Of a stretch of 53,250 nt of DNA, positions 11,639 to 27,983 are shown one piece after another. The stretch covers positions 1 to 53,250 of the forward strand of contig JAICMI010000004.1 in NCBI GenBank assembly GCA_025929315.1, read 5' to 3'. Source of the DNA: Frankiaceae bacterium. GTDB lineage: Bacteria; Actinomycetota; Actinomycetes; JAFAQI01. Each line of letters begins with the position of its first letter. Within the stretch, counting starts at the first letter, position 1. Below the pieces are notes generated by a model, which searched no databases, had not been told where the DNA came from, and worked only from the letters and a program-made list of their open reading frames with translations. The position numbers and the translations under genes are program-made.

Positions 11639-13102
11639 ATGACAGAGTTGATCGCTCGAGTGCTGGACCGGCCGCTCCGGGAGCGGCCGGATGCCGAGGC
11701 TGTGGTCGGCCGGTCCGGCCGGCTCAGCTACCGCGAGCTCGACGTCGCGGCTGATCGCGCCGCGGGCGCGTTCGCGTCGTTCGGGCTGGCCACCGGTGAC
11801 CACGTCGCAGTCAGCCTCCCGAACGACATCGACGTCGTCGTCGCCTTCCACGGTGCGATGCGTCTCGGTCTCGTCTGGATCGGCCTCAACACGGCGCTTG
11901 CGGCGCCGGAGAAGGCGCACATCATCGCTGACAGCGGAGCCCGGTTCGTGCTCGACGACACCGTCGACTGGATGGCAGCGATGAAGGCCGCCTCGCCGAC
12001 GACAGCGGTCGACGTCGATCCGCATGCCCCTGCCGGCATTGCCTACACGAGCGGCACGACCGGGCTGCCACGTGGCGTCGTACACAGTCAACACAACCTG
12101 CTGCTTCCGGGCGAGGTCCTGGTCAGGACCCGCGGGTACGACGAGGCGTTGCGCAAAGGCGACTGCCTCCCCCTGACGATCCTCAACCTCATGGTGCTGA
12201 CGACGTTGCTCACCGCGCAGGCGGGTGGATGCTGCGTCGTCATGGACCGTCGTGATGCGGACGGCGTGCTCGACTGGATTCGCGACGAGCGGGTGACGGT
12301 CTGGAACGGTGTCCCGACCCAGCTCTTCGATCTCGCGCGCAAGCACGCGCATCGACGTGAGGACCTGGCGACGCTCACCGAGGTGTGGAGCGGCGGCGGC
12401 GACTGTTCGGATGCGCTGCGCCGGGAGTTCCACGAGGCGTTCGGGCTGCCGGTGCGGGCTACCTACGGCCTCACCGAGGCGCCGACGGTTGTCGCGATCG
12501 ATCCCGTCGGGGACGAGTGGCGGCCGGGCGCGAGTGGCCAGTCGCTTCCGCACCTGTTGGTCTCTGCGGCCGACGTGGACGGTGAGCTCGGCGAAGTCAG
12601 CGAGCTCGGCGAAGTCAGCGAGCTCGGCGAAATCAGTGTCGGGGCGGCGACGTCGGGCGAGTGGGCCGGAGCATGGACGCCGATGCTCGGCGAGTGGATG
12701 AACGGCGAGCTGCGCCCGAACGCCGACCCGGTCCTGCGCACCGGCGATCTGGGCACGGTGAGCGACGGATGGGTGAGCATTCGCGACCGGCGCAAGCTCG
12801 TCGTGGTCCGCGGCGGCGCCAACATCTATCCGGCCGAGGTGGAGCGGGTCCTGCTGTCGGTGCCCGGCGTCGCGGCGGCCGCGGCTTTCGGGCTGCCGAG
12901 CGAGCGACTCGGCGAGCAGCTGGCTGCTGCAGTCCAGCCGGCACCGGGCGCAACCGTGACCATCGACCAGCTCGAGGCGGTGTGCCGTGCGCAGCTGTCG
13001 CGCTACAAGGTGCCGGAGCGATGGGTGGTCGTCGACGCGTTGCCCGTCAACGCGATGGGCAAGGTCATCCGCGCTGAGCTGCCCGGTTTGCTCACACCGT
13101 GA
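11639..13102 (+). CDS. Class I adenylate-forming enzyme / acyl-CoA synthetase
   Basis: YTSGTTGLPRG, YGLTE, RTGDLG, RGGANIYPAEVE and MGKV motifs. Confidence 0.88.
   Translation: MTELIARVLDRPLRERPDAEAVVGRSGRLSYRELDVAADRAAGAFASFGLATGDHVAVSLPNDIDVVVAFHGAMRLGLVWIGLNTALAAPEKAHIIADSGARFVLDDTVDWMAAMKAASPTTAVDVDPHAPAGIAYTSGTTGLPRGVVHSQHNLLLPGEVLVRTRGYDEALRKGDCLPLTILNLMVLTTLLTAQAGGCCVVMDRRDADGVLDWIRDERVTVWNGVPTQLFDLARKHAHRREDLATLTEVWSGGGDCSDALRREFHEAFGLPVRATYGLTEAPTVVAIDPVGDEWRPGASGQSLPHLLVSAADVDGELGEVSELGEVSELGEISVGAATSGEWAGAWTPMLGEWMNGELRPNADPVLRTGDLGTVSDGWVSIRDRRKLVVVRGGANIYPAEVERVLLSVPGVAAAAAFGLPSERLGEQLAAAVQPAPGATVTIDQLEAVCRAQLSRYKVPERWVVVDALPVNAMGKVIRAELPGLLTP
12584..12637 (+). repeat. In-frame 18-bp tandem repeat x3 (ELGEVS ELGEVS ELGEIS)
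   Basis: GAGCTCGGCGAAGTCAGC twice, then GAGCTCGGCGAAATCAGT. Confidence 0.9.
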
Positions 13103-14135
13103 GTCGATGCTCCGGTGGGGCAGCGATCCCGTCGGCCGTGATGCCGGCAGCGTCCGCGAGGTCGCCGAGCAGCTGACGCCGCGTCCGCGGAACAGTCGGG
13201 TCCGCGATCGCGCGCGCAGACCACAGGTGCAGAGGACTGTCCAGCACGAACCCCATCCCGCCGTGCAGCTGGTGGGCGACCAGAGTCGCGGTGCGGAACG
13301 TCTCTGCTGCGGACAACGCAGCGATGTCGGCAAGCCGCCGGATCTCCGCCGCCGGCCGGCCGGCGGCGACGGCCCAGGCTGCTTGGGCAACCGCGAGCTC
13401 CGTTGCGTCGTGGTTGGTCGCGACGTCGGCCAGCTGGTGCTGGACCGCCTGGAACGTGCCGATCGCCCGACCGAACTGCTCGCGCGTCTTCACGTGCTCG
13501 ATGGTCCGGTCGAGCACCGCACGAGCACCGCCGAGCTGGCGCGCCGCAGCCAGAACTGCGGCCTCGGCGCGGAAGAGCTCGAGTCCGTCGGCGTCGATGG
13601 CGAGTCGTTCCTGAGCTGACGCCAGGTCGCCGGCGAACGTCCAGGCAGCGATGTCGCAACCGGTCGCTTCCTCTGACCATTGCACCGCCGCACCGGGCAG
13701 TACGACGACCGCGGAACCGTCGACGACGAGCACGTCGGTGACGTCGGGTCCGGCCGCGACACGGTATGCGCCCTGGACAACGGTTGCGGTTCGCGTGCCG
13801 TCGGCCAGAGCGGCGAGCAGCCCGTCGCGGCCGGCGCCGGAGCTACGCAGGAGCAGCCGGCCGGCCACTGTGATCGCCGTGAGCACCGGACCGGCGAGAC
13901 CGCGGCCGAGCTCCTCGTGCGCGGCTACCAGGTCGGCGAAGGTGCCGGCACCGCCGCTCTGCTCGGGCAGGCCCAGGCCAGGGATGCCGACCGCCAGACC
14001 GTCGGCCAGATCTCGGGCGGCATCGTGTGTCGGCGGTTCGGGCAGCGCGGCGACGAGCGCATCGATGCGCCGGTCGAACAACCGCCGCAGCGCGGCGCGG
14101 AGCTGTTGCTGCTCCTCGCTCGGGCGAAGATCCAC
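13092..14135 (-). CDS. Acyl-CoA dehydrogenase, short non-catalytic subunit (FadE27/FadE28-like)
   Basis: MDLRPSEEQQQL; KTREQFGRAIGTFQAVQHQLAD; QLHGGMGF. 347 aa, lacking the EPDAGSD FAD motif. Confidence 0.8.
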   Translation of the reverse strand: MDLRPSEEQQQLRAALRRLFDRRIDALVAALPEPPTHDAARDLADGLAVGIPGLGLPEQSGGAGTFADLVAAHEELGRGLAGPVLTAITVAGRLLLRSSGAGRDGLLAALADGTRTATVVQGAYRVAAGPDVTDVLVVDGSAVVVLPGAAVQWSEEATGCDIAAWTFAGDLASAQERLAIDADGLELFRAEAAVLAAARQLGGARAVLDRTIEHVKTREQFGRAIGTFQAVQHQLADVATNHDATELAVAQAAWAVAAGRPAAEIRRLADIAALSAAETFRTATLVAHQLHGGMGFVLDSPLHLWSARAIADPTVPRTRRQLLGDLADAAGITADGIAAPPEHRLTV

Positions 14136-14139
14136 GCGG

Positions 14140-15084
14140 TCAGGCTTGCCCGGACGACGGCACGGCCGCGGCCATCAGCTGCTGGAAGTCGTGCGATGAC
14201 ATGCCCTCGGCCGGAAGTCGGCCATCATCCCCGATTGTCAGGGCGGGATGACCGTCCAGCTTCGCGGCCAGATCGTCGATGCTCCACCGGTCGTCACCTT
14301 CGAGCAGCGGGGTCGTGGTCCAGCCGTTGAAGGCGGCAACCTGCGCACCGACGACGTGGAACACCGCACCGGTGACTGCGCAGTCAGCACTGGCGAGATA
14401 GCCGACCAGCGGCGAGACATTGCCGGGATGCCACGCGTCGAAGCCCGACTCGGGCGCGGCGAACATGTCGCCGAGACCCGGCGTGGCCGCGGTCATCTGC
14501 GTGCGCGCAAGCGGCGCGATCGCGTTGGCGCGGACACCGTAACGACCGAGCTCCTTGGCCGCGACGAGTGTGAGGGCGACGATGCCTGCTTTGGCGCTCG
14601 AGTAGTTGGCCTGGCCGGGGTTGTTGAGGATGCCCGCACCCGAGGTCGTACTGATGATGCTGGCGGTGACGGTGTTGCCCGCCTTCTGCTGGCCACGCCA
14701 GTGCACGGCAGCCCAGTGGATGGTGGCAGCGTGACCCTTGAGATGGACGCCCACGACGCTGTCCCAGGCATCTTCGGTGAGGTTGACGATCATGCCGTCG
14801 CGCACAATGCCCGCGTTGTTGACCAGCACGTGCAGGTCGCCGTAGGTCTGCACCGCCGTGTCGATCAGGCTCTGCGCGCCCTCCCAGCTCGTCACGTCGG
14901 CAGGGCAGGCGACCGCCGTGCCGCCGGTCGCGGCGATGTCGTCCACGACGCCTTGGGCCGCATCCGCGGACACGTCGTTGACCACGACTGCCGCGCCCTG
15001 GGCCGCGAGCAGCAGCGCATGTTCGCGTCCGAGTCCGGCTCCTGCGCCGGTCACGATCGCCGTCCGCCCGTCAAGCGTGGCCAT
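14140..15084 (-). CDS. SDR, 3-oxoacyl/hydroxyacyl-CoA dehydrogenase-like
   Basis: TGAGAGLG, NNAGIVRD, GQANYSSAK, and an extended C-terminus. Confidence 0.9.
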   Translation of the reverse strand: MATLDGRTAIVTGAGAGLGREHALLLAAQGAAVVVNDVSADAAQGVVDDIAATGGTAVACPADVTSWEGAQSLIDTAVQTYGDLHVLVNNAGIVRDGMIVNLTEDAWDSVVGVHLKGHAATIHWAAVHWRGQQKAGNTVTASIISTTSGAGILNNPGQANYSSAKAGIVALTLVAAKELGRYGVRANAIAPLARTQMTAATPGLGDMFAAPESGFDAWHPGNVSPLVGYLASADCAVTGAVFHVVGAQVAAFNGWTTTPLLEGDDRWSIDDLAAKLDGHPALTIGDDGRLPAEGMSSHDFQQLMAAAVPSSGQA

Positions 15085-15104
15085 CAACGAGGTCCCTTCC
15101 GCTG

Positions 15105-15122
15105 TCTTCTAAAAGATAATAT
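15105..15122. promoter_or_regulatory. Shared motif copy 1 (TCTTCTAAAAGATAATAT) overlapping divergent -10 boxes
   Basis: 17 of 18 nt identical to 25312-25329. TAATAT on the plus strand and TATCTT on the minus strand. Confidence 0.7.
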
Positions 15123-15164: not shown

Positions 15165-15956
15165 TTGCCGACCCCAGCGCCCGGTCGACGCTCTGTGCTC
15201 ATCGCCGGAGCGATGCTGCCGGTCGTCCGCTATCTGCCGGCGCCGGCGCTCGCCTCGAGCAGCGGCGCGCCTGGTGCCGTGACGGCCTACCGGTTCCTGA
15301 CGGCGCACCAGGCGGCGACCGTCATCGAGGCAACTGCGCGCCTTGTCCCGGGGCCGCAGGACGACCCGCTCGAGGCCGGTCACCCCGGCGCACGCGAAGC
15401 AGGAGTCGTGCACTTCATCGACCGGTTGCTGTCGGCGTTCGAGGAGTCCCCGCCGGCGATTTTCGCCGGTGCCCCGTGGAGCAACCGGCACACGTCGGGC
15501 CCGGATCACATGAAGAAGTTCCTGCCCCTGGTCGAGCGGCAGGACAAGGCCTGGCACGAGCGCCTCAAGCAGCTGCGCAAGCAGGTTGCCGACGCCGTCG
15601 TCAAGCTCGACAAGGCGGCGGCCGCCGACGGTTACAAGGACTTCGTCGCTGCGCCGATGAGCGAGCAGGACAAGCTGCTGACCGACCTCGCCGACGTCCG
15701 CGACGTGCTGTTCAGCCTGACGATCGATGCGATGTACTCGGTGCCGGAGTACGGCGGCAACCACAAGCTCGCGGGGTGGCATGAGATCGGCTGGCCGGGC
15801 GACATCCAGCCGGTGGGCTACACCAAGGCGCAGGTCGAGAGGGACGACGGTCCGGACCCGGTCGGGACCAACGATCTTCCCGCTGTGCAGGAGCTGATCG
15901 ACGCGCTGCCGATCCTGACGCGCGCCCGCGCGGCTCGGAGCTCGACCGGTGGCTGA
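15165..15956 (+). CDS. Gluconate 2-dehydrogenase subunit-3-like (Tat-exported GMC partner)
   Basis: GRRSVL twin-Arg signal; PGAREAGVVHFIDRLL; YGGNHKLAGWHEIGWPG; GGAGG RBS before the TTG start. Confidence 0.85.
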   Translation: MPTPAPGRRSVLIAGAMLPVVRYLPAPALASSSGAPGAVTAYRFLTAHQAATVIEATARLVPGPQDDPLEAGHPGAREAGVVHFIDRLLSAFEESPPAIFAGAPWSNRHTSGPDHMKKFLPLVERQDKAWHERLKQLRKQVADAVVKLDKAAAADGYKDFVAAPMSEQDKLLTDLADVRDVLFSLTIDAMYSVPEYGGNHKLAGWHEIGWPGDIQPVGYTKAQVERDDGPDPVGTNDLPAVQELIDALPILTRARAARSSTGG

Positions 15957-17640
15957 CCGCGCAGTCGTTGTCGGCAGCGGCGCGGGAGCGAGCGTCGTAT
16001 GTCTCGAGCTCGCGCGCGCCGGCTGGGACGTCGTTGTGCTCGAGCGCGGTCCGGCCTACTCGCGTCACCCGGACAAGCCGTCGCACCGCTTCTCCAACGA
16101 CGAGCTCAAGGCCAACCGCTACTTCGAGATGCCCGACCCGCTGACCGAACCGCGTGCGTTCCGGGCAAGTCCGAGCGACAAGGACACGGTCGGCGAGGTC
16201 AACCAGCTCGCTGCCGTCGTGGGCGGTGGCACGGTGCACTGGGACGCCAAGGTGCCGCGGTTCTGGAACATCGACTTCAAGAAGAAGTCGTTGCTCGGCG
16301 CCTATCCCGGCACCGACGTGTGCGACTGGCCGTTCTCCTACGACGACATCGCGCCGTTCTACAAACGCGTCGAACATCTGCTCGGCGTGCAGGGTCCGGC
16401 CACGCTGCCGTCGGCGCCGACCCTGAAGCACGCTCCGGGCAAGCGCGGTTACGACATGCCGCCCGGGCCGCAGCAGTTCTCGTCGATGACGATCGCGTCA
16501 GGCTGCACGGCGGTCGGCATGCATCCCTATGCCTTCCCGATGGCCGCCAACTCCAGGGAGCACGACGGGCGACCGGCGTGCAACGACTGTGGCCAGTGCA
16601 GTGGCTACGGCTGTCCGAACAATGCGCGCATCGGCGCGCTGGCGGTGCTCGACGAGGCTTGCGAGACCGGTCGCGTGAAGATCCGCCCGCAGACGTTCGC
16701 GCATCGGGTCCGGCTCGACGGACGCAAGGCCAAACGGGTCGAGTGGATCGGACTGGGCGGTCGTCGCGGCAGTGATCGCGCAGATCTCGTCGTACTTGCT
16801 GCTTCTGCCATCGAGACGTCGCGCCTTGCCCTGCTGTCCGATCTGCCCGACCCGCACGACCGCATCGGCCGGGACATGATGTTCCACAACTTCGTCGACG
16901 GCTTCGGCATCTTCCTGGACCGGCGCATGCACGCCTATCGCGGGCGATCGACCACACAGTGCTGTGAGGACCTCGCTGACCCGGACTACCCGGGCATGCG
17001 CGAGGCAGCGCAAGCAGCGGGCCTGCCCTATGTGCGCGGTGGCATCATGGAGCTCGGCGGCTCGCAGGACCCCATCGCCGAAGCCAACATCTATCGCTTC
17101 CTGCTCGAGACGATCCACTCCGCCGACCAGACCGGTCAAGCAACGCCGCCGTTCGGCACCAGGTTCAAGGCGTTGATGCGGTCGAGCCCGCTGCGTGACC
17201 GGCTCGCGGGCGTGTCGATGGTCGGCGAGGACCTGCCCTACGCGACCAACCGCGTTGATCTGGCCGGGGTCAAGGACTACCGCGGTGTCCCCGTCGCGCG
17301 GCTGACCTACTCACCCGGTCAGCATGAGCAGGTGGCGGTGGCGTTCTGCGCCTCGCAGATCACTGCGCTGATGAAGGCAGCCGGTGCGACAGTGTCGGCG
17401 GCGGTGCCGGAGTCGCTCGGCAACATGACGGCAATCCCGCACGGCGCACACATCATGGGCGGGATGCGCATGGGCGCCGACCCCAAGACGAGCGTCACCG
17501 GCAAGCACGGCATGGTGCATCACTTGGACAACGTGCTGGTCGCCGACGGGTCCGTGTTCCCGACGTCCGGTGCTCAGAACCCGACGCTCACGATCATGGC
17601 GACCGCTCTCAGGAACGTGACGGCCCTACTGCACGGCTAG
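15949..17640 (+). CDS. GMC family FAD oxidoreductase (catalytic subunit)
   Basis: VVVGSGAGA, VGGGTVHW, Cys cluster CNDCGQCSGYGCP, AHIMGGMRMG, FPTSGAQNPTLT. Confidence 0.9.
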   Translation: MADRAVVVGSGAGASVVCLELARAGWDVVVLERGPAYSRHPDKPSHRFSNDELKANRYFEMPDPLTEPRAFRASPSDKDTVGEVNQLAAVVGGGTVHWDAKVPRFWNIDFKKKSLLGAYPGTDVCDWPFSYDDIAPFYKRVEHLLGVQGPATLPSAPTLKHAPGKRGYDMPPGPQQFSSMTIASGCTAVGMHPYAFPMAANSREHDGRPACNDCGQCSGYGCPNNARIGALAVLDEACETGRVKIRPQTFAHRVRLDGRKAKRVEWIGLGGRRGSDRADLVVLAASAIETSRLALLSDLPDPHDRIGRDMMFHNFVDGFGIFLDRRMHAYRGRSTTQCCEDLADPDYPGMREAAQAAGLPYVRGGIMELGGSQDPIAEANIYRFLLETIHSADQTGQATPPFGTRFKALMRSSPLRDRLAGVSMVGEDLPYATNRVDLAGVKDYRGVPVARLTYSPGQHEQVAVAFCASQITALMKAAGATVSAAVPESLGNMTAIPHGAHIMGGMRMGADPKTSVTGKHGMVHHLDNVLVADGSVFPTSGAQNPTLTIMATALRNVTALLHG

Positions 17641-18462
17641 GCGGGCTCGGGCGGCGCGAAGATGCGGGCCCTCGCGGTAGGACCGCGGCGCGAGTGCGGT
17701 GCCGGCGCGCAGCGCGCGAACACCCGCCGCAGCCGCGACTCCGGTCAGGGGCGGCGCGACGACGCCGTACATCCGCCGCGCCCACGACGGCAGCAGTCCG
17801 AGCGCAAGTCCCGCACCGGCCGCCCACGCCGGACGGGCCGGGGTCGCCCAGCGGACCCACCGCGGCATGGGTGGGGCGAGGACGTAGCGAGCCAGCTCGC
17901 GCGTGCGCCCGTCGGCGGTGAGGTCGGCACGAATCGTCGCGAAGTAGTCCGCCATCTCCGCGTTCGTGGCGGGCACGGTGTCCGGATCCAGTCCGACGAC
18001 GACCGCCGCGCGCGTCTGCTCGGCGTAGTAGCAGTCGATCTCCTCCGTGCTGAGCCGGCCGCCGGCGCGTTGGTAGGTCGTCAGGAACGACTCCACCTCG
18101 CTGCAGTGCACCCATCGCAGCAACGTCGGGTCGTCCGCTCGGTAGCGCACGCCGGACTCCGGGTCGACGCCCCGCACCTTGCCGTGGATGGCGCGGACGC
18201 GCGCTCCGATCGCGTCGACCTCGGCCGTGCTGCCGAACGACACCACGCCGACGTAGTCGGCCGTCCGGAGCAGCCGGCCCCAGGGATCGGCGCGGAAGTC
18301 GGAGTGGCGCAGCACGCCGGCCATCGCCGCCGGATGCAGTGCCTGGAGCAGCAGCGCCCGCAGTCCGGCGATCCACATCACGGGATCGGCGTGGACGCGC
18401 CACGTGACGCTGTCGGGACCGAACAGACCGGGGTCCGCTTCGGGGCGCGACGTCGTTGTCAT
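17626..18462 (-). CDS. Oxygenase MpaB / DUF2236 family protein
   Basis: GLFGPDSVTWRVHAD, LLLQALHP, Y.ADDP.LL.WVH motifs. Confidence 0.85.
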   Translation of the reverse strand: MTTTSRPEADPGLFGPDSVTWRVHADPVMWIAGLRALLLQALHPAAMAGVLRHSDFRADPWGRLLRTADYVGVVSFGSTAEVDAIGARVRAIHGKVRGVDPESGVRYRADDPTLLRWVHCSEVESFLTTYQRAGGRLSTEEIDCYYAEQTRAAVVVGLDPDTVPATNAEMADYFATIRADLTADGRTRELARYVLAPPMPRWVRWATPARPAWAAGAGLALGLLPSWARRMYGVVAPPLTGVAAAAGVRALRAGTALAPRSYREGPHLRAARARLAVQ

Positions 18463-18473
18463 CTCTGCCAGGG

Positions 18474-18731
18474 TCACACGTCGGCCGGTCGTCTGCTGCG
18501 CAGGGCCATGGCGGTACGACGGGCGAGGACGAGCCAGCACAGGAAGGCGACCGCCGACAGCAGCGCGGGGAGCCAGTGGCCGAGCAAGGTCGAGGCGGCT
18601 ATCGCGCACCCGAATGCAAGAAGATTCGCGACGGCGTCGTAGACCGGCGCCACGAACCGTCGGTTGATGACGTGCGAGACCGCAATCACCAGCCCGCAGG
18701 CGAACGTGACCGAGAGGAGAAAGCTCACCAC
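18474..18731 (-). CDS. Small hypothetical membrane protein (85 aa)
   Basis: Three hydrophobic helices; GAGGGGAG RBS-like sequence before the GTG at 18731; sits in operon position. Confidence 0.55.
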   Translation of the reverse strand: MVSFLLSVTFACGLVIAVSHVINRRFVAPVYDAVANLLAFGCAIAASTLLGHWLPALLSAVAFLCWLVLARRTAMALRSRRPADV

Positions 18732-20861: not shown

Positions 20862-21493
20862 GCATGCACGACGAGGTTCTTGCCGCAGCAAAGGACATGC
20901 TGCGGCTCAACCTCACCGCAGGAACCAGCGGCAACGTGTCCGGGCGACTCGAGGACGGCTCGGTCGTCATCACGCCGTCGTCGATCGACTACGAGACGAT
21001 GACGCTGGCCGACCTCGTCGTACTCGATGCGTCGGGCGAGGTCATCGAAGGAACCCGTTCGCCGTCGAGCGAAAAGCTCGTGCACATCGCCTGCTACAAG
21101 CGTTTTCCGGAAGTCCAGTCGGTCATCCACGCGCATCCGGTCTATGCGTCGATGTTCGCGGTCGCGCGCCAACCGATCCCGTCGGCGATCGACGAGTTCG
21201 CCGTCTACGTCGGCGGTGACGTGCCGGTCGCGGACTACGCGATGACCGGTTCGTCAGAGCTCGGCGAGAACGCGGCCGACTGTCTCGTTGATGTCGGCTC
21301 GGCACTCCTCGCCAACCACGGCACGGTGACGGTGAGCGACTCGCCGGAACGCGCGATCCACCAGCTCGGCGTTGTCGAACGCGCAGCACAGATCGTGTGG
21401 GGTGCGCGCATCCTCGGCGGCGACGCCGAGTTGCCCTCGTCGACCAACGAGACCCTTGGCGGCTACTACCGAATGATGCGCAAGCCCTCGTGA
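20858..21493 (+). CDS. fucA: Class II aldolase (L-fuculose-phosphate aldolase-like; resembles M. tuberculosis Rv0727c)
   Basis: GTSGNVS, ITPSS, PSSEKLVH, IHAHP and LLANHG Zn ligands. Confidence 0.85.
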   Translation: MSMHDEVLAAAKDMLRLNLTAGTSGNVSGRLEDGSVVITPSSIDYETMTLADLVVLDASGEVIEGTRSPSSEKLVHIACYKRFPEVQSVIHAHPVYASMFAVARQPIPSAIDEFAVYVGGDVPVADYAMTGSSELGENAADCLVDVGSALLANHGTVTVSDSPERAIHQLGVVERAAQIVWGARILGGDAELPSSTNETLGGYYRMMRKPS

Positions 21494-22812
21494 CTGCGGC
21501 ATCCGACCAGATCACGGTCGGCGTCGACATCGGGACCACGTCGGTCAAGGCCGTCGCGGTGAACGCAGCCGGCGAAGTCGTTGCCCGCACGCGGGTGCCG
21601 CACAAGATCCAGGCAACGAGCGACCGGCTTCGACACGATGCCGATCAGGCCTGGCGCCGCGGGCCGCGTCGTGCATTGAAAGCCCTCGGCGGTCTAGCGC
21701 CGAAGGCGCTCAGCGTCACGGGCATGGTGCCGTCGATGGCGGCGGTGGATCGTCGCGGCAAACCGACAACGGACGGGCTGCTCTACGGCGACGCCGAGGG
21801 CCGACCCGCCGATCGCCACGGAATGCCGGATCTCGTCGGGGACGCCCCGGAGTTCCTGCGTGCACTCGTGCGCATGGCCCCGGAAGCCGCCGGCTACTGG
21901 TCGGCGCAGACGACGGCGACCGTCGCTCTCGGTGGGCCGCCTGTCCTCGCCGGCGACGTCGCGATGGTGTTGTGGCCGCTGTCAACCGGTGAGGCCTGGG
22001 ACCAGTCGGTGCTCGACGAATGTGGCGTCTCGGTCGACCAGGTGCCGCAGATCGTGCCGAGCCGTACGCCGGTCGCCGACGTCGACGGAATGCTGCTCGA
22101 CGGTGGCGCGATCGACGTTGCCTGCGAGCGGATCATCTCCGGCATCGAGGACGGCGACGCGCTCGTCATCTGCGGCAGCACGCTGATCGTCATGGCAGCT
22201 TTGCCGCCGGGGGCGACGCCTCCGGCGGAGATCATCGCCTACCCCGACGAGACCGGGGCGCAGACCGCGACTGCTGCCAGCAACGCCGGCGGATTGTTCC
22301 TCAACTGGGTGGATCGGACGACCGTGAAGTCGCGGGGTCCCGTCGACCCCGAGCAGGTGCCGGTCTGGCTGCCCTACATCCGCGGCGAGCGAACGCCGTG
22401 GAACGACCCGAACCGGCGCGCTGTCCTGGCTGACGTCCACCAGGGTCACGACGCCGCGGCAGTTCGACGGGGCGCGTTCGAGGCGAGCGCGTTCGTCGCG
22501 CGCCACTTGCTCGAGATGATGGATCTGTCGCCGAGACGCATCGTCGCGCTCGGTGGCGGCACTCAGGTCGACGGCTGGATGCAGGCACTCGCGGACGCGC
22601 TTTGCGCGCCGGTCGATGCAGCGACGGATCCCGAGACCGGCGCCATCGGCGCCGCGTTCTGTGCGCGTCTCACCGCCGGCCTCGAAGGCGACCTGCGCGA
22701 CGGTGCCCGGTGGGCGCGCTCCGCTCGACGCTTCGAGCCGAACGCCGACTGGACCGACCCGGTGAAGCGCCGCTACACCAGATTCCGCGAGCTCGCTCAG
22801 CAAGGTCGTTAG
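21490..22812 (+). CDS. FGGY-family carbohydrate kinase (resembles Rv0729 XylB)
   Basis: GVDIGTTSVK, LPYIRGERTP, GGGTQ..GWMQ. GTGA overlap with the aldolase. Confidence 0.85.
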   Translation: MTAASDQITVGVDIGTTSVKAVAVNAAGEVVARTRVPHKIQATSDRLRHDADQAWRRGPRRALKALGGLAPKALSVTGMVPSMAAVDRRGKPTTDGLLYGDAEGRPADRHGMPDLVGDAPEFLRALVRMAPEAAGYWSAQTTATVALGGPPVLAGDVAMVLWPLSTGEAWDQSVLDECGVSVDQVPQIVPSRTPVADVDGMLLDGGAIDVACERIISGIEDGDALVICGSTLIVMAALPPGATPPAEIIAYPDETGAQTATAASNAGGLFLNWVDRTTVKSRGPVDPEQVPVWLPYIRGERTPWNDPNRRAVLADVHQGHDAAAVRRGAFEASAFVARHLLEMMDLSPRRIVALGGGTQVDGWMQALADALCAPVDAATDPETGAIGAAFCARLTAGLEGDLRDGARWARSARRFEPNADWTDPVKRRYTRFRELAQQGR

Positions 22813-24299
22813 GCCGCGAAGCACCAGATGCCGGTGGCTTGGGGCGGCACGCGCGAGGACTGGTCGAAGTAGGTGCCGGTGCCGAACACGATGTTCTGGC
22901 CCGAGATGGCGACTCCGCCGGACGCGGCGGCGGCAACGGGCACGTGCCAGACCAGCAGGCCGTCCGTCGCGTCGTAAGCGTTGACGGCGAACTCCGTCGT
23001 GTCGGAGGCGAAGACGATGCCGCCGGCGACCGTGACCGGCGCGTAGGACGGCGCCTGCGCGGGCTGGTTCCACACGACGGCGCCGGTGACCAGATCGACG
23101 GCGTGCAGCGACGTGAGTCGTTCCGGGTCTGTGGTGGTGCCGGCCCCGCCATCGGGAGAGGCGGGGATGGCGCTGTCCCCGTAGAGCACTGGATGGTGTG
23201 AGGTCGGATCGGTTGCGACGGCGACCGATCCGATGAAGCCTCCGACGCTCGAGCCGACGGCGGCTTGCACGCTGCGTACGAGCCGGCCGTTGTCACGATC
23301 GATGGCGTAGACCCAGCCGGACTTGCCGGCTTGTACGGCGACGTCCTTGCCGCCGACCTCGGTGAGAACGACCGACGCGCCGAAGTCGTTGTCCTGACCA
23401 TGGTTGGCGGCAGGCTCGTGGAACGTCCAGACGGGTCGGCCGTCCGTGGCGCGCAGCGCCCATACGCGTTGCGTGTCCCTGCCCGACTGAAGGTTGCAGT
23501 TGCCCCCACCGAAGAAGAGCATCTGCCGCCGGGGGTCCAACGCAGGCGAGCTCCAGATGTCACCGCACGCCGTTTCCGGGTGCGAGCGTCTGCCCAGGTT
23601 GTGCACGACCTCGTCTTTTTCGGCGTCGTACTTCCAGCGCAGTGCGCCGGTGCGCGCGTCGATGGCGAGCATGCCACCGTCCGCGGAGTGGGGGTCCTCG
23701 TTGGAGTCCATCCCGACGAACACGACCGGATCGCGACCGTGTCCGCGGTTCCAGACCACGGGCGAGGACTCGACCTCGGTCGTGCTGGCGGGGTGCGACG
23801 GGTCGGCGTCGACGGCCCAGCGGGCGCGGCCGTTGTCAGCGTCGACCGCGTAGACCGTGCCACCTGCCGCGAAGACCACCGTCGGGCCCAGGGAGGGCAC
23901 CTCGACCGCACTCGCCGAGGCAGTGATGCGGCCATAGGAGACGTCGTGCCGGTCGACGTGCTCCGGGTTGTGGCCGGTATCGAACGTCCACGTGTCCTTG
24001 CCGGTGGCCATGTCGACCGCATGCATCCTGCCGGTGCCGTCACCGACGAAGGCGTGGCCCCAGGCAATGGCGGGTTCTGCGGTGACGGCGCCGTCCGTCT
24101 GAAGGAACCAGCGCGGCTGGAGCTTGGCGGCGCCGAGCGCCGTGAGGCTGCTGCACGTGGCATCGGCTGTTCGTGCTGGGTCGTGCTGGAACATCGGCCA
24201 GTCGGTGTTGCACGGAGCGGCGGCGTGTGTGACCGCCGGACTCACGACCGTCATCGCGGCGAGCGAGAGCCCGGCCCCGAGCAACGTCGCGCGCCGCAT
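22809..24299 (-). CDS. Secreted PQQ-binding-like beta-propeller (PVA-dehydrogenase-like, no haem domain)
   Basis: Signal peptide MRRATLLG; DWPMFQHD; repeated A.D..TG...W docking motifs; IWSSPALD; DNDFGAS. Confidence 0.8.
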   Translation of the reverse strand: MRRATLLGAGLSLAAMTVVSPAVTHAAAPCNTDWPMFQHDPARTADATCSSLTALGAAKLQPRWFLQTDGAVTAEPAIAWGHAFVGDGTGRMHAVDMATGKDTWTFDTGHNPEHVDRHDVSYGRITASASAVEVPSLGPTVVFAAGGTVYAVDADNGRARWAVDADPSHPASTTEVESSPVVWNRGHGRDPVVFVGMDSNEDPHSADGGMLAIDARTGALRWKYDAEKDEVVHNLGRRSHPETACGDIWSSPALDPRRQMLFFGGGNCNLQSGRDTQRVWALRATDGRPVWTFHEPAANHGQDNDFGASVVLTEVGGKDVAVQAGKSGWVYAIDRDNGRLVRSVQAAVGSSVGGFIGSVAVATDPTSHHPVLYGDSAIPASPDGGAGTTTDPERLTSLHAVDLVTGAVVWNQPAQAPSYAPVTVAGGIVFASDTTEFAVNAYDATDGLLVWHVPVAAAASGGVAISGQNIVFGTGTYFDQSSRVPPQATGIWCFAA

Positions 24300-24334
24300 G
24301 CGACAACGTTCGCCGCCGGCGGGCGGGGACCTGC

Positions 24335-25312
24335 CTAGCCGAGCACCTCGGGGTTGATGCAGTTGTTGGGCTTGTCGCCGGTCAAGATCGCGGCGATGCC
24401 GTCGGCCATCTGCTGCGCGTGGTTGGCCTCGACGTTGTAGGTCGCGCCGCCGATGTGCGGGGTGAGCACCACGTTGGGCAGCTGCGCCAGCGCTGAGTCG
24501 GGCGCGAGGACCTCACCGTCGAAGTGGTCAAGTCCTGCGCTCGCGAGATGCCCCGACCTCAGGGCGTCGACAAGTGCATCGACGTCGTGCAGCGCCGCCC
24601 GCGCCGCGTTGAGATAGATCGCGCCTTCTTTCATCTGCGCGAACTGCTTCTCGCTCATCATCTTCATCGTCTCGGGGACGACCGGGGCGTGCATCGACAC
24701 CACATCGGCCTCGGCCAGGAGGTCGTCGAGGGCGTAGGTCGCGTCGTCCGCGTAGGGGTCGTAGGCGATGACCCGCATGCCGAGCCCCTCGAGCCTCCAG
24801 GCAAGTGCGCGGCCGATCGCGCCGTACCCGACGATCCCCGCGGTGCGGCCGTTGACCTCCCAGCCGCGGAAGCGCTGATAGGGGATCGTGCCGTCGCGAT
24901 AGGTCTCACCGGCGCGGACGTCGTCGTCGGCGGGGACGATGTGACGGGCTGCTGCGAAGAGCAGACCGACCGTCAGCTCGGCGACCGCGTCGGCGTTGCG
25001 ACCGGGCGCGTGGAGCACCGGGATGCCCCGCTCGGTCGCCGCCGGCACGTCGACGTTGGTGGGGTCGCCCCGGGTCGCGCCGATGACGACCGGCTTGAGG
25101 TCAAGGGTGGCCGGGCCGACCCGGTCGCCCTCGCAGATCACGATCGTGGCGCCCTCGGCCTGCACTCGCTCCGCAAGCTGTTCGTCGTTGTAGAGCCGCA
25201 GCGGCTTCTGCTCGATGAAGGGCTCGTAGACGATGTCCGCAAGCTCTTTGAGCGCGTCAAAACCCGGTCCCCGCATGGGCGCGAGCACCAGCGCCCTCTG
25301 TTCCCTGCTCAT
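24335..25312 (-). CDS. D-2-hydroxyacid dehydrogenase (resembles Rv0728c SerA2)
   Basis: TRGDPTNVDV, PGRNADAVAE, GYGAIG, LNAAR, LTPHIGG. No ACT domain. Confidence 0.9.
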   Translation of the reverse strand: MSREQRALVLAPMRGPGFDALKELADIVYEPFIEQKPLRLYNDEQLAERVQAEGATIVICEGDRVGPATLDLKPVVIGATRGDPTNVDVPAATERGIPVLHAPGRNADAVAELTVGLLFAAARHIVPADDDVRAGETYRDGTIPYQRFRGWEVNGRTAGIVGYGAIGRALAWRLEGLGMRVIAYDPYADDATYALDDLLAEADVVSMHAPVVPETMKMMSEKQFAQMKEGAIYLNAARAALHDVDALVDALRSGHLASAGLDHFDGEVLAPDSALAQLPNVVLTPHIGGATYNVEANHAQQMADGIAAILTGDKPNNCINPEVLG

Positions 25313-25335
25313 CTTCTAAAAGATAGTATGGACGG
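25312..25335. promoter_or_regulatory. Shared motif copy 3 plus two overlapping leaderless divergent promoters
   Basis: ATCTTCTAAAAGAT has 5-bp arms. On plus, TAGTAT lies 6 nt before GTG 25336. On minus, TATCTT lies 7 nt before ATG 25312. Confidence 0.75.
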
Positions 25336-26853
25336 GTGAAAGAGCTCATCTACGCCCGGCTCTTCCTGCCGGCCGCGGAGCGGCACGCGCAACGAGCGGC
25401 CATCCACGACGGCACCTACTCGGCGACGTTCGGCGAGCACGCCACCCGCGCGCTGCAGCTGACCGACGCGCTCGGCTCCGGTCTCGGGCTCAGCCGCGAG
25501 GACCGGTTCGCGGTCGTCGCTCTCAACGGTCACCGCTACCTCGAGCTCTACCACGCCGCCTTCCTCGGCGGCGCCGTCATCAACCCCGTCAACTACCGCC
25601 TCGCCGACCGCGAGACCGCCCACGTCCTCAAGCACTCCGGCGCCCGAGTCGTGTTCGTCGACGCTGCTTTCGCCGAGCGGGTGCAGGCGATCGTCGACTC
25701 GGGCGAGACATCCGTCGAGCGGGTCGTGTCACTCGACGACGACTACGAGGATCTGCTCGCTTCTGGCAACGACGTCGTGCCGGCCGAGCCGGACGAAGAG
25801 TCGCTGCCGATGTTGATGTACACCGGCGGCACCACCGGCATGCCCAAGGGCGTCGCGAGCACGCAGCGCGCGCAGATGCTCAACCTCTACCACCTCGCAA
25901 TGGTGCAGGGACTTGCCTTCAACGAAGAAGCGGTCTACCTGCACCACATGCCGATGTTCCACTCGATGGGCGCCAACGCTGCACTCTCGGCGGCTGCGTT
26001 CGGCACCGAGGCAACTGTCATTCCGGCGTTCGAGCCGGGCGCGTTCATGACCGCGGTCGCGAAGCACGGCGTCACCGAGACGGTGCTCGTGCCGACGATG
26101 ATCGCGATGATCCTGCGGCATCCCGACTACGCGCCGGATCGGCTGAGCAGCCTCAAGCGCATCGGCTACGGCGGCATGGCGATGCCACATGCGCTGCTGG
26201 CCAAGCTGCAGGAGTCGTCGCCCGACATCCAGCTGCTGCAGGGCTACGGCATGACGGAGGCGTGCCCGACGCTGACGTTCCTGACGGCCGAGGATCACCT
26301 GCGCGGCGAGGACAAGCGGCACTCCGTCGGACGGCCGCTGCCCGGTGTCGATGTCGCGATCTTCGACGGCGACGGCAACAGGCTTGCCACCGGTGAGGTC
26401 GGCGAGGTCTGCGCGCGCGGCGGCAACATCATGACCGGCTACTGGGAAAACCCCGAAGCGACAGCCAAGGTGTTCCGTGACGGCTGGTATCGCACCGGCG
26501 ACCTCGGCAAGTTCGACGCCGACGGCTACCTCTACCTCGTCGACCGTGTGGACGACATGATCGTGACCGGTGGAGAGAACGTCTACTCGATCGAGGTCGA
26601 GAACGCACTGACCACCTATCCAGGCGTCGTGCAGGTTGCCGTTGTCGGCGTGCCCGACGAGGTCTGGGGCCAACGCGTGCACGGCATCGTCGTCCTCGCT
26701 CCCGACGCTGCCGGTACGACGGAAGAACAGCTCGCCGAGCACGCGCGGAAGTCGATCGCCGGCTACAAGGTCCCCAAGACGTGGGAGCTGCGCACCGAAC
26801 CGCTTCCGGTGTCCGGCGCGGGCAAGCCGCTCAAGCGCGAACTCCGCTCCTAG
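25336..26853 (+). CDS. Long-chain acyl-CoA synthetase
   Basis: YTGGTTGMPKG, GYGMTE, YRTGDLG, TGGENVYSIEVE and AGKPLK motifs. Confidence 0.92.
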   Translation: MKELIYARLFLPAAERHAQRAAIHDGTYSATFGEHATRALQLTDALGSGLGLSREDRFAVVALNGHRYLELYHAAFLGGAVINPVNYRLADRETAHVLKHSGARVVFVDAAFAERVQAIVDSGETSVERVVSLDDDYEDLLASGNDVVPAEPDEESLPMLMYTGGTTGMPKGVASTQRAQMLNLYHLAMVQGLAFNEEAVYLHHMPMFHSMGANAALSAAAFGTEATVIPAFEPGAFMTAVAKHGVTETVLVPTMIAMILRHPDYAPDRLSSLKRIGYGGMAMPHALLAKLQESSPDIQLLQGYGMTEACPTLTFLTAEDHLRGEDKRHSVGRPLPGVDVAIFDGDGNRLATGEVGEVCARGGNIMTGYWENPEATAKVFRDGWYRTGDLGKFDADGYLYLVDRVDDMIVTGGENVYSIEVENALTTYPGVVQVAVVGVPDEVWGQRVHGIVVLAPDAAGTTEEQLAEHARKSIAGYKVPKTWELRTEPLPVSGAGKPLKRELRS

Positions 26854-26855
26854 CA

Positions 26856-27983
26856 ATGGACTTTGCGCTCGACGAGCACCACCAGGCCTGGGTCAAGGAG
26901 GTCCGCGAGTTCCTGCGCGCCGAGTTCGACGTCGAAGCCGAGGAAGAGTCACGTCGACGTGGTGGTGAGGCGAGCGGCCCGGTGCTGCGCAAGTTCCGCG
27001 CCAAGATGGCGAAGCGCGGCTGGCTCGCCCTGACCTGGCCGGTCGGCTACGGCGGCTCCGGCCGGACCACGTTCGAGCAGTTCCTGCTCATGGACGAGTT
27101 CGCCTACTGGGGTGCGCCCGCCATCGACCTGACGGCGAGTGCGGTGGCGCCGACCATCATGCGGTTCGGCACCGACGCGCAGAAGAAGCGCTGGCTGCCC
27201 GCCATCTTGTCCGGCGAGGTGGAGTGCGCGATCGGCTACTCCGAACCTGATGCCGGCAGCGACCTCGCGTCCCTGCGCACGAGCGCTCGTCGCGACGGCG
27301 ATGTGTGGGTGGTCAACGGCGAAAAGCTCTGGAACACGGGAGCCGAGTTCGCCACGCATGAGTGGCTGGTCGTGCGCACGGACCCGGATGCGCCAAAGCA
27401 CAAAGGCTTGTCGGTGGTCATGGTGCCGATCGACGCGCCGGGTGTGACCGTGCAGCCGATCGTCACCTGGGGTGGGATCCGCACCAACGCGGTGCACTTC
27501 GAAGATGTCCGTGTCGATGCCGACGCATTGATCGGCGCCGAGAACGACGGCTGGCGTTACGTCACGACCGCGCTCGACTTCGAACGGGTGTCGATCGGCG
27601 TCACCGGCGGGCTGCGCCGCTTGTACGACGAGACGCTGCGCACGATCACGTCGTACGAAGTGGATGTCCGGCATGGGCTCGCTGAGCTGTCCGTCAAGAT
27701 CGAGAACGCGCGGCTGCTCAACTACCGCGCCGCCTGGATGGTCGACCAGGGGCTCATGCCCAACGCGGAAGCGTCGATGACAAAGGTCGTGACGACCGAG
27801 CTGCAGGCGTCGTTGTCAGCCGCGGTGCTGGAGCTGGTCGACCCGACGTCGTTCGCCGCTGAGCTGGCGCGGCACCTGTACCGGCAGGCGCCCTACCTGC
27901 GTTTCGGTGGCGGCACCAACGAGATCCAGCGCGACATCATCGCCCAGCGCGGCCTAGGCCTTCCGCGAGGCGCGTCCCGGTAG
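26856..27983 (+). CDS. Acyl-CoA dehydrogenase, catalytic subunit (FadE26/FadE29-like)
   Basis: GYSEPDAGSDLASL, NGEKLW, LDFER, FGGGTNEIQRDIIA. Confidence 0.88.
   Translation: MDFALDEHHQAWVKEVREFLRAEFDVEAEEESRRRGGEASGPVLRKFRAKMAKRGWLALTWPVGYGGSGRTTFEQFLLMDEFAYWGAPAIDLTASAVAPTIMRFGTDAQKKRWLPAILSGEVECAIGYSEPDAGSDLASLRTSARRDGDVWVVNGEKLWNTGAEFATHEWLVVRTDPDAPKHKGLSVVMVPIDAPGVTVQPIVTWGGIRTNAVHFEDVRVDADALIGAENDGWRYVTTALDFERVSIGVTGGLRRLYDETLRTITSYEVDVRHGLAELSVKIENARLLNYRAAWMVDQGLMPNAEASMTKVVTTELQASLSAAVLELVDPTSFAAELARHLYRQAPYLRFGGGTNEIQRDIIAQRGLGLPRGASR

What the first reader, a model, noticed from the sequence alone, without database searches (positions are those of the whole stretch)
13092..27983. 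Candidate undescribed catabolic system: six operons under three divergent promoters sharing one motif
TCTTCTAAAAGATA(A/G)TAT occurs at 15105 and 25312 (17/18 identical), and its core TCTAAAAGA recurs at 20040-20048 on the minus strand. All three sites are divergent promoter regions. A rough estimate at ~68% GC is about 0.03 chance copies of this 9-mer per window (post hoc). The three sites front SDR+FadE-beta, Tat GMC pair, MDR+membrane protein+MpaB-like oxygenase, SDR+class II aldolase+FGGY kinase, SerA2+PQQ propeller, and FadD+FadE-alpha. Exported oxidases, a ketose kinase/aldolase route and steroid-type acyl-CoA enzymes in one putative regulon match no pathway I know. It suggests a substrate with a polyol/sugar-like head and a hydrophobic acyl body (inference).
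Basis: partly seen in the sequence, partly recalled or inferred. Interest (0 to 1): 0.85.

Follow-up and report, generated by a model that had tools for sequence, protein, structure and literature searches.

The report
Shared two-way promoter cassette, catabolic cluster
Two gene-start regions in a soil actinobacterial gene cluster carry the same conserved 18-base AT-rich cassette, a pair of back-to-back promoters that probably also binds a repressor, so several operons of an uncharacterised sugar-plus-lipid breakdown cluster are probably switched together.

Summary
TCTTCTAAAAGATA[A/G]TAT lies at 15105 and 25312, and its 9-mer core lies at 20040 (minus strand). All three are in divergent intergenic regions. 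The 9-mer occurs only four times in the 2.65 Mb MAG, and the fourth copy precedes an ABC-transporter operon.

Sites 1 and 2 are invariant in orthologous loci (G015 and soil metagenome contigs), although only 37-44% of third codon positions are invariant there. The cassette is absent from 34 other family genomes.

The 18-mer is mostly promoter. It holds two back-to-back -10 hexamers sharing TA (TATCTT leftward, TA[A/G]TAT rightward) plus the leftward start region. At site 2 both genes appear leaderless. With three more bases it forms an imperfect 7-4-7 dyad, CTRTCTT-N4-AAGATAG, which is perfect in one ortholog. That suggests an unidentified dimeric repressor.

Site 1 looks like a copy of the site-2 cassette that arrived with the G2DH3-GMC insertion. 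Site 3 has a similar "-10 + YTAR + AAGA" layout but no dyad, and its 9-mer match holds only in close relatives.

The core genes co-occur widely. The GMC pair, PQQ propellers and MpaB are accessory. Substrate and regulator remain unknown.

The parts
15102..15122 (.). Site 1 cassette. Dyad CTGTCTT-CTAA-AAGATAA lies at 15102-15119. The leftward -10 TATCTT is the complement of 15113-15118. The rightward -10 TAATAT lies at 15117-15122.
   Evidence: It is identical in G015 and L035 and differs at one N position of the -10 in L063.
25309..25329 (.). Site 2 cassette. Dyad TCATCTT-CTAA-AAGATAG lies at 25309-25326. The leftward -10 TATCTT is the complement of 25320-25325, 7 nt before the SerA2 ATG (25312-25310). 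The rightward -10 TAGTAT lies at 25324-25329, 6 nt before the FadD GTG at 25336. The whole intergenic region is 23 bp.
   Evidence: 18/18 positions are invariant in five near-clade sequences. AAAGATAG is invariant in ten lineages.
20036..20053 (.). Site 3 conserved block GGTTTCTTTTAGATCTTA. The -10 TAAGAT for MDR is the complement of 20048-20053 and is followed by CTAA-AAGA. The 9-mer core is at 20040-20048. The block sits at fixed spacing from the SDR Shine-Dalgarno AGGAG (20062-20066) and ATG (20076).
   Evidence: TTTCTT.T..ATCTTA is invariant in 13 lineages. There is no dyad.
13092..14135 (-). ACAD beta-type subunit. No middle domain was detected.
   Evidence: Pfam. The best solved relatives are 6WY8_A and 4X28_D.
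14140..15084 (-). SDR, close to NCBIfam PRK07791. It is the first gene leftward of site 1 and is missing in L035, L063 and L072.
15165..17640 (+). G2DH3 small subunit with Tat-like RRSVL (15165-15956) plus GMC flavoprotein (15949-17640). It is an accessory module, absent from L067 and L072.
   Evidence: The GMC protein is closest to the FAD-glucose dehydrogenase alpha subunit 6A2U_B and to the fructose dehydrogenase large subunit.
17626..18740 (-). MpaB/Lcp-type oxygenase (17626 to about 18462) and a small hydrophobic ORF (about 18474-18740). This slot is variable and holds other genes, or nothing, in the orthologous loci.
18748..19983 (-). MDR polyol-type Zn dehydrogenase. The true start is the ATG at 19983 (MKALVFG).
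20076..22812 (+). Operon of SDR (20076-20861), class II aldolase (20858-21493) and FGGY kinase (about 21397/21505-22812).
   Evidence: The aldolase is closest to FucA structures.
22809..25312 (-). SerA2-like D-2-hydroxyacid dehydrogenase (24335-25312, leaderless) and exported PQQ-type propeller (22809-24299).
25336..27983 (+). FadD-type acyl-CoA ligase (25336-26853, leaderless) and ACAD alpha-type subunit (about 26856-27983).
   Evidence: The best solved relatives are 6WY8_B and 4X28_A.

Best explanation
The 18-mer is the core of a bidirectional promoter cassette that most likely doubles as a repressor operator.

Shown by sequence:
- It contains two back-to-back -10 hexamers of the actinobacterial TANNNT type. 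They share a TA: TATCTT for the leftward gene and TA[A/G]TAT for the rightward gene.
- At site 2 the SerA2 ATG lies 7 nt, and the FadD GTG 6 nt, after their hexamers. Both transcripts are therefore read as leaderless.
- With three more bases on the left the element is an imperfect 7-4-7 dyad, CTRTCTT-N4-AAGATAG. It covers the leftward -10 and start site and abuts the rightward -10.

Inferred:
- An unidentified dimeric regulator binds this dyad and blocks both divergent promoters.
- SDR-ACADbeta, G2DH3-GMC, SerA2-PQQ and FadD-ACADalpha would then be switched together, with an unlinked ABC-transporter operon on contig C145 that has the same dyad.
- Site 1 is a duplicate of the site-2 cassette. 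It came in when the G2DH3-GMC pair was inserted into what relatives keep as one MDR-SDR-ACADbeta operon.
- Site 3 is a separate two-way promoter. Its MDR-side layout (-10, YTAR, AAGA) resembles the others, but it has no dyad, so its two operons may or may not answer to the same factor.
For: - Rarity and clustering. The 9-mer has 4 copies in 2.65 Mb, 3 of them within 10 kb. The oriented pattern TANNNTNYARAAGA has exactly 4 genome hits, each pointing at a downstream gene.
- Constraint. The 18-mer is invariant at site 2 in 5 near-clade sequences, whereas only 37-44% of third codon positions in the flanking genes are invariant. AAAGATAG is invariant in 10 lineages reaching down to 74% SerA2 identity.
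- -10 behaviour. All changes seen in the rightward hexamer fall on N positions (TAGTAT, TAATAT, TAGAGT).
- Leaderless reading. Orthologs L063, L066, L067, L068 and L069 keep the hexamer but have an inserted 25-35 nt leader with a Shine-Dalgarno before the same FadD start.
- Dyad. Arm complementarity is 4-7/7 in all site 1, site 2 and C145 copies and 7/7 in L066. The left arm is not explained by any -10.
- Duplication. L067 and L072 have MDR-(SDR)-ACADbeta unsplit, with no GMC pair and no site 1. Site 1 also shares the leftward leader GAAGACAG..CGGAAGG with leadered site-2 orthologs.
- Lineage specificity. The cassette core is absent from 34 of 36 family genomes. Family members with the usual serA2<->FGGY layout carry a different operator, CTGACRCGCGTGTCAG.
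- Other promoters of this island have GC-rich stretches after the -10 and other palindromes.
Against: - No regulator has been identified. The adjacent TetR has its own operator, GAGAAC-N3-GTT, which is not present at sites 1-3.
- The left arm of the dyad is only moderately conserved (4-7/7). It could instead be constrained as initial transcribed sequence.
- Sites 1 and 2 may be alike simply by descent, as a duplicated promoter.
- No transcription start or expression data could be obtained.
- A simple sigma-70 consensus scan finds no full -35/-10 promoter, although weak -35 elements are usual in Actinobacteria.
- The C145 binding protein is only 23% identical to the transporter protein that sits next to the cluster in L067.
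Confidence: 0.5

Rival explanations
1. Plain promoter cassette with no dedicated regulator. The 18-mer would be two overlapping -10 elements plus an AT-rich stretch before the start site, giving a strong housekeeping-sigma promoter. Sites 1 and 2 are alike because one was copied from the other. Co-expression would follow only from equal promoter strength.
For: Ten of the 18 bases are the two hexamers. Substitutions in the rightward hexamer fall only on N positions. There is evidence for duplication. No regulator was found.
Against: The N positions of the leftward hexamer TATCTT, and the base after it, never vary in 14 sequences. The left arm keeps 4-7/7 complementarity to the right arm and is perfect in L066. 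That is not needed for sigma binding. The same dyad occurs at the unlinked C145 site.
Confidence: 0.3
2. One regulator recognises TCTAAAAGA at all three sites and controls six operons that together degrade one substrate with a polyol head and an acyl body.
For: The exact 9-mer is at all three divergent regions. Site 3 is a strongly conserved block. The kinase/aldolase/SerA2 genes co-occur with MDR, SDR, FadD and ACAD genes across many Actinomycetota.
Against: At site 3 the 9-mer lies in the opposite orientation. It is changed in G015, L067, L068 and L072 (TCTTCTAGA, TCTTCTACA, TCTTCTGCA), and the dyad is missing (2/7). The tetramers AAGA/TCTT are direct repeats at site 3 but inverted at sites 1 and 2. 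Three of the six operons contain accessory genes that are lost in relatives.
Confidence: 0.15
3. Chance similarity, or a remnant of a mobile element. Under the second reading the 18-bp direct repeats would flank a 10.2 kb segment as att sites or a target duplication.
For: The two copies are direct repeats 10.2 kb apart.
Against: Shuffles expect 0.00 copies. Both copies sit exactly at gene starts and are conserved across lineages with different gene content between them. No integrase or transposase was seen among the annotated genes between or next to them.
Confidence: 0.03

Closest known systems
KstR/KstR2-type regulons of actinobacterial steroid catabolism (TetR repressors with one operator repeated in many divergent promoter regions)
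   Same: A short operator-like dyad is repeated in divergent intergenic regions of a lipid-type catabolic cluster. It overlaps the -10 and start site. The cluster includes ChsE4-ChsE5-like ACAD subunits and FadD19-like ligases.
   Different: The sequence is unrelated to TnnAACnnGTTnnA. No such site is present at sites 1-3. The only KstR-like palindrome, GAGAAC-N3-GTT, belongs to the neighbouring TetR/PQQ2 promoter. The regulator here is unknown. The KstR consensus is quoted from memory.
Back-to-back divergent promoters giving leaderless mRNAs in Actinobacteria (TANNNT -10 about 7 nt before the start codon; known from Mycobacterium and Streptomyces start-site maps, quoted from memory)
   Same: TANNNT hexamers lie 6-7 nt before the ATG and GTG at site 2. 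Relatives have the same hexamer followed by a Shine-Dalgarno leader.
   Different: The two hexamers overlap by two bases within a 23-bp intergenic region. The whole unit is kept letter for letter and is re-used at a second locus.
Conserved fucA-serA2-xylB-like trio of Mycobacteriaceae (M. tuberculosis Rv0727c-Rv0729; locus numbers from memory)
   Same: The class II aldolase, SerA-like dehydrogenase and FGGY kinase are orthologous. They are 61-67% (SerA2), 44-60% (aldolase) and 38-49% (kinase) identical to copies in Mycolicibacterium agri, Mycobacterium MAGs and Acidimicrobiia.
   Different: In those genomes serA2-fucA is divergent from the kinase, with the palindrome TGACACGCGYGTCA between them. 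Here the trio is rearranged (SDR-aldolase-kinase, and SerA2-PQQ), the palindrome is gone and the AT-rich cassette takes its place.
E. coli L-fucose-type route (FGGY ketose kinase plus class II ketose-1-phosphate aldolase)
   Same: A kinase plus a FucA-like aldolase. The closest solved structures are FucA, at 114 bits against 73 for the AraD epimerase.
   Different: No sugar isomerase or sugar permease is present in the cluster. It is embedded among acyl-CoA ligases and ACADs. All NCBIfam equivalog scores are below cut-off.
FAD-glucose/fructose dehydrogenase complexes with a Tat 'hitch-hiker' small subunit (Burkholderia cepacia FAD-GDH, Gluconobacter FDH)
   Same: The GMC protein is closest to 6A2U_B and 7W2J_A. 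The partner is a Gluconate_2-dh3 protein with a twin-arginine motif.
   Different: No cytochrome c subunit is adjacent. The pair is an accessory insertion in this cluster.

Membership tests
Actinobacterial housekeeping-sigma promoter driving leaderless mRNA | A TANNNT hexamer ending 6-8 nt before the start codon or start site | tested here: met
   TATCTT + 7 nt + ATG (SerA2) and TAGTAT + 6 nt + GTG (FadD). Substitutions among orthologs fall only on N positions of the rightward hexamer.
Actinobacterial housekeeping-sigma promoter driving leaderless mRNA | A mapped transcript 5' end at the start codon | not testable with these tools
Transcription-factor operator shared by a regulon | Recurrence upstream of several operons, rare elsewhere in the genome | tested here: met
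   There are four genome copies, all directly upstream of genes. The cassette is absent from 34 of 36 family genomes.
Transcription-factor operator shared by a regulon | Conservation in orthologous promoters beyond the neutral expectation | tested here: met
   18/18 positions are invariant, against 37-44% of third codon positions.
Transcription-factor operator shared by a regulon | Dyad or repeat symmetry common to all sites | tested here: inconclusive
   A 7-4-7 dyad scores 4-7/7 at sites 1, 2 and C145 (7/7 in L066), but only 2/7 at site 3.
Transcription-factor operator shared by a regulon | An identified cognate regulator | tested here: not met
   There is no regulator gene in 13-28 kb. TetR 30929-31621 has a different conserved operator.
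Transcription-factor operator shared by a regulon | Co-induction of the operons | not testable with these tools
   No expression data could be reached.
KstR regulon | Operator TnnAACnnGTTnnA at the promoters | tested here: not met
   The sequences of the three sites do not contain it. The only AGAAC..GTT match in the window is at 30859.
alpha2beta2 steroid-type acyl-CoA dehydrogenase (ChsE4-ChsE5-like) | Two distinct subunits homologous to the alpha and beta chains | tested here: met
   ACADalpha matches 6WY8_B (271 bits) and 4X28_A (248 bits). ACADbeta has 6WY8_A as its best hit and also matches 4X28_D. No middle domain was detected in beta.
alpha2beta2 steroid-type acyl-CoA dehydrogenase (ChsE4-ChsE5-like) | Adjacent co-transcribed genes and a physical heterotetramer | tested here: not met
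   The genes lie 12.7 kb apart in different operons, here and in L035, L063 and L067. Complex formation is not testable.
L-fucose/rhamnose-type kinase-aldolase pathway | FGGY kinase plus class II ketose-1-phosphate aldolase | tested here: met
   Pfam. FucA is the nearest solved structure.
L-fucose/rhamnose-type kinase-aldolase pathway | A sugar isomerase and a sugar transporter in the cluster; equivalog-level scores | tested here: not met
   Neither is among the genes of 1-39 kb. The scores for fucA (244 against a cut-off of 308) and xylB (118 against 380) are below cut-off.

The most novel reading that the evidence does not exclude
The cluster would encode an undescribed route that strips a polyol head from a bulky lipid. 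Candidates are a bacteriohopanepolyol side chain, a phytosphingoid base freed by the neighbouring ceramidase, or a glycolipid.

The proposed steps are:
1. Exported or cytoplasmic dehydrogenases (GMC, PQQ, MDR, SDR) make a terminal ketol.
2. The FGGY kinase phosphorylates it.
3. The FucA-like aldolase releases DHAP and a lipid aldehyde.
4. The aldehyde is oxidised, CoA-activated by the FadD enzymes and dehydrogenated by a split alpha/beta steroid-type ACAD.

The AT-rich dyad would be the operator of a new regulator for this pathway. The same chemistry would explain the unassigned fucA-serA2-xylB trio of mycobacteria.
Probability: 0.12. Interest if true: 0.8.

Novelty: new variant of a known kind. 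Interest (0 to 1): 0.45.

Why it matters
The cluster is common in uncultured soil Actinomycetota. Its core (SerA-like dehydrogenase, class II aldolase, FGGY kinase, polyol dehydrogenases) extends to Mycobacteriaceae, where I found no assigned function in the literature searched.

The conserved cassette gives a concrete, testable handle in three ways:
- It defines which operons are probably switched together.
- It gives a bait for pulling down the regulator.
- It gives a reporter for screening inducers, which is the most direct way to find the substrate.

It also shows how a regulon can be kept intact when an operon is split. The inserted module appears to have arrived with a copy of the cluster's own two-way promoter.

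If the element is only a promoter, it is still a neat but ordinary example of promoter re-use.

Tried and rejected
- A genome-contig scan with the FGGY protein alone confirmed no relative. The SerA2 alignment worked.
- Rfam found no RNA family anywhere in the window. The E. coli-type promoter scan found no full -35/-10 match.
- TetR 30929 as the regulator was rejected. Its divergent region carries a conserved GAGAAC-N3-GTT(C/T) palindrome that occurs nowhere near sites 1-3.
- The ancestral trio operator CTGACRCGCGTGTCAG is absent from the cluster.
- A 12-bp palindrome TCTTCT/AAAAGA was considered and dropped. Its left half drifts in relatives, and the 7-4-7 reading fits better.
- Orthology of the C145 binding protein with the transporter next to the cluster in L067 was rejected (23% identity). 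However, C145 does carry the Amidohydro_2 + aldolase pair that neighbours the cluster in L067.
- A genome scan with the dyad at up to 2 mismatches gave three extra hits (C18 inside a gene, C5, C56). They were judged not distinguishable from chance.
- The other 9-mer-sharing loci (C34, C167) and the 8-mer-sharing locus C15 show no link.
- The repeat search of 13-28 kb gave only GC-rich chance pairs and one terminator-like hairpin.
- Literature searches for the trio, for hopanepolyol degradation and for phytosphingosine degradation returned no described pathway of this composition. The library is incomplete.

Full report
**Observation**

The 18-mer is at 15105-15122 (TCTTCTAAAAGATAATAT) and 25312-25329 (TCTTCTAAAAGATAGTAT). 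Nothing else in the window matches within 3 mismatches, and shuffles expect 0.00. The exact 9-mer TCTAAAAGA occurs at those two places and at 20040-20048 on the minus strand: 3 found, 0.01 expected.

The window is contig C156 of a 2.65 Mb, 68%-complete, 68% G+C MAG. In that genome the 9-mer occurs four times. The fourth copy is at C145:6619. Only four further loci share any 9-mer with the 18-mer.

- ACAD beta-type subunit 13092-14135(-) and SDR 14140-15084(-).
- Tat-motif small subunit 15165-15956(+) plus GMC flavoprotein 15949-17640(+).
- MpaB-type oxygenase and a small hydrophobic ORF (17626 to about 18740, -).
- Polyol-type MDR 18748-19983(-).
- SDR, class II aldolase and FGGY kinase (20076-22812, +).
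- Exported PQQ propeller 22809-24299(-) and SerA-like dehydrogenase 24335-25312(-).
- FadD 25336-26853(+) and ACAD alpha-type subunit (to 27983, +).

All three sites lie between divergent genes.

**Anatomy of sites 1 and 2**

At site 2 the intergenic region is only 23 bp. Read leftward it is TATCTT-TTAGAAG-ATG (SerA2). Read rightward it is TAGTAT-GGACGG-GTG (FadD). These are two TANNNT hexamers that overlap by TA, each 6-7 nt before a start codon.

This is the layout of leaderless transcripts in Actinobacteria (established knowledge, quoted from memory). Orthologs support the reading. L063, L066, L067, L068 and L069 keep the hexamer but have a 25-35 nt insert with a Shine-Dalgarno sequence before the same FadD start. 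Site 1 has the same two hexamers, but both of its genes have leaders with Shine-Dalgarno sequences.

Ten of the 18 bases are therefore -10 elements. The other eight are the stretch between the leftward -10 and its start site.

**Conservation**

I collected orthologous loci from several sources:
- a family genome (G015);
- a metagenome scan with the MDR protein (L034-L061, including a 263 kb soil contig, L035);
- SerA2 homologs with their contigs (L062-L069);
- a species-genome scan (L070-L149).

In L035 and L063 the cluster is syntenic and all three sites are present. L062 is also syntenic and keeps sites 2 and 3, but the locus ends before site 1.

Anchored comparisons show the following:
- Site 2 has 18/18 positions invariant in five near-clade sequences.
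- AAAGATAG is invariant in ten lineages, down to 74% SerA2 identity.
- Site 1 is invariant in four sequences except one N position of the -10.

In the same five sequences only 37-44% of third codon positions of the flanking genes are invariant, so the element is under strong constraint. The changes in the rightward hexamer (TAGTAT, TAATAT, TAGAGT) all keep T1, A2 and T6, as expected of a -10.

The cassette core AAAGATARTAT occurs in only 2 of 36 species genomes of the family, this one and G015. It is not a generic promoter element.

**A dyad**

With three more bases to the left, the element reads CTRTCTT-N4-AAGATAG. The two 7-nt arms are complementary at 4-7 of 7 positions in every site-1, site-2 and C145 copy, and at 7 of 7 in L066.

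The right arm is the leftward -10. The left arm lies at the leftward start site and is not a -10 for anything. Such a dyad over -10 and +1 is the usual form of a repressor operator. This is an inference, because no protein is known.

The nearest regulator, the TetR at 30929-31621, is conserved next to the cluster in L062, L064 and L066. Its own divergent region carries a different conserved palindrome, GAGAAC-N3-GTT(C/T). That palindrome occurs nowhere near sites 1-3.

**Site 3**

The block GGTTTCTTTTAGATCTTA (20036-20053) is conserved in 13 lineages as TTTCTT.T..ATCTTA. It sits at fixed spacing from the SDR ribosome-binding site. It contains a -10, TAAGAT, for the MDR gene.

Read in the direction of transcription, the three leftward promoters align as follows:
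- TAAGAT-CTAA-AAGA at site 3;
- TATCTT-TTAG-AAGA at sites 1 and 2.

The pattern TANNNTNYARAAGA has exactly four hits in the genome, the three sites and C145, each pointing at its gene.

Two things weaken the link to sites 1 and 2. The exact 9-mer shared with them exists only in the closest relatives; the other orthologs have TCTTCTAGA (G015), TCTTCTACA (L068) or TCTTCTGCA (L067, L072). Site 3 also has no dyad (2/7). Its AAGA/TCTT tetramers are direct repeats, whereas those at sites 1 and 2 are inverted. Site 3 is a real conserved promoter block, but it is not shown to be the same binding site.

**Origin of site 1**

In L067 and L072 (74-75% SerA2 identity) the site-3 promoter drives (ALDH)-MDR-(SDR)-ACADbeta as one operon. 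There is no GMC pair and no site 1.

In the near clade (window, G015, L035, L062, L063) the G2DH3-GMC pair sits between MDR and SDR/ACADbeta. Site 1 lies at the junction in the four loci that reach it; L062 ends before that point. Site 1 also shares the leftward leader GAAGACAG..CGGAAGG with the leadered site-2 orthologs.

The simplest reading is that the site-2 cassette was duplicated together with the inserted module. The copy gave the cut-off SDR/ACADbeta genes, and the new GMC pair, the cluster's own promoter.

**The gene set**

The stable core across lineages is:
- FadD-ACADalpha <-> SerA2;
- FGGY-aldolase-SDR <-> (ALDH)-MDR-(SDR)-ACADbeta;
- plus a second FadD.

The GMC pair, both PQQ propellers and the MpaB slot are variable.

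The SerA2-aldolase(-kinase) unit is widespread in Actinomycetota, including Acidimicrobiia, Mycolicibacterium agri and Mycobacterium MAGs. It often sits with MDR and SDR orthologs, GMC pairs, or FadD and ACAD genes. There the intergenic operator is TGACACGCGYGTCA, which the window lacks.

The closest named records are MAGs labelled Frankiaceae or Actinomycetes bacterium.

Nearest relatives of the enzymes:
- ACADalpha and ACADbeta are nearest to the two chains of the Thermomonospora (6WY8) and M. tuberculosis (4X28) steroid side-chain ACADs.
- The GMC protein is nearest to the FAD-glucose and fructose dehydrogenase catalytic subunits.
- The aldolase is nearest to FucA rather than AraD.
- The MDR is nearest to polyol dehydrogenases.

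No NCBIfam equivalog cut-off is reached for the cluster genes. I found no described pathway of this composition in the searchable literature.

**Verdict**

The element is best described as a conserved, lineage-specific two-way promoter cassette that probably also serves as a repressor operator. It is duplicated within the cluster and has one more copy in front of an ABC transporter.

It supports coordinated control of four operons. It leaves the two site-3 operons open. It does not by itself define a six-operon pathway.

Noticed in passing
L025-L031 (serA2<->FGGY intergenic); L080, L087, L096, L103, L112, L113, L129: A palindrome, TGACACGCG(C/T)GTCA, lies between the serA2-like and FGGY genes, next to a -10-like hexamer in the family genomes L025-L031. 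It occurs in distant family members and in Mycobacteriales/Mycobacterium MAGs. It also occurs elsewhere in several Acidimicrobiia loci. It looks like an old operator of the fucA-serA2-xylB-like trio and is absent from the window.
   Followed up: partly
window 30846-30862 and 30720-30937; L062 2851-3074; L064; L066: The TetR 30929-31621 is divergent from the orphan protein + PQQ2 operon. The shared region carries conserved GAGAAC-N3-GTT(C/T) palindromes (KstR-like half-sites with 3-nt spacing) and an AT-rich promoter, TTGTCTTATTGGAAAAAGTTTGAAAGATT.
   Followed up: partly
window 8546-8560 and 9178-9196: TGACG-N3-CGTCA palindromes abut -10 hexamers: TATATT before the leaderless FadD19-like gene, and CATAAT before the ALDH. 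This is a third operator type in the same island, as another first-reader note also said.
   Followed up: no
window 19980-19997 (-): A 5-codon upstream ORF (ATG AGG TCT CGC ACA TGA) has a stop that overlaps the MDR start codon (ATGA). The same 5-codon arrangement is present in L034, L035, L039 and L040, but not in L037 or L063.
   Followed up: partly
genome contig C145:6616-6634 and C145:1-14200: The fourth copy of the cassette (CTATCCT-CTAA-AAGATAA) lies upstream of a Peripla_BP_6 binding protein / permease / ATPase operon. The same contig carries an Amidohydro_2 + class II aldolase pair whose ortholog (75%) lies beside the cluster in L067.
   Followed up: partly
window 27995-28076: A 27-nt inverted repeat (81% complementary, 28-nt loop) lies between the convergent ACADalpha and PQQ2 genes. 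It is probably a two-way terminator.
   Followed up: no
window 1080-3023 (-): A neutral/alkaline ceramidase (Pfam E = 1.7e-153) lies at the edge of the lipid-catabolic island.
   Followed up: no
L024 (G015:C422) about 275-325: Three tandem copies of GTGGGTATCTGG lie in the leader of the SDR_14140 ortholog, immediately left of site 1. They are absent from the window.
   Followed up: no
window 24299-24335 versus L035 3963-5239, L062 11093-12229, L064 11142-12326, L069 4083-5261: Relatives have a 378-394 aa protein with no Pfam match between SerA2 and the PQQ1 propeller, in the same kind of pairing as the orphan protein that precedes PQQ2. The window lacks it.
   Followed up: no
L033 (G003:C36:8929): CATCATCTAAAAGATAA sits in front of an apparently leaderless FadD-like gene that is divergent from an MDR, in a family member lacking the rearranged cluster. 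It is a weaker relative of the cassette (arms 4/7).
   Followed up: partly
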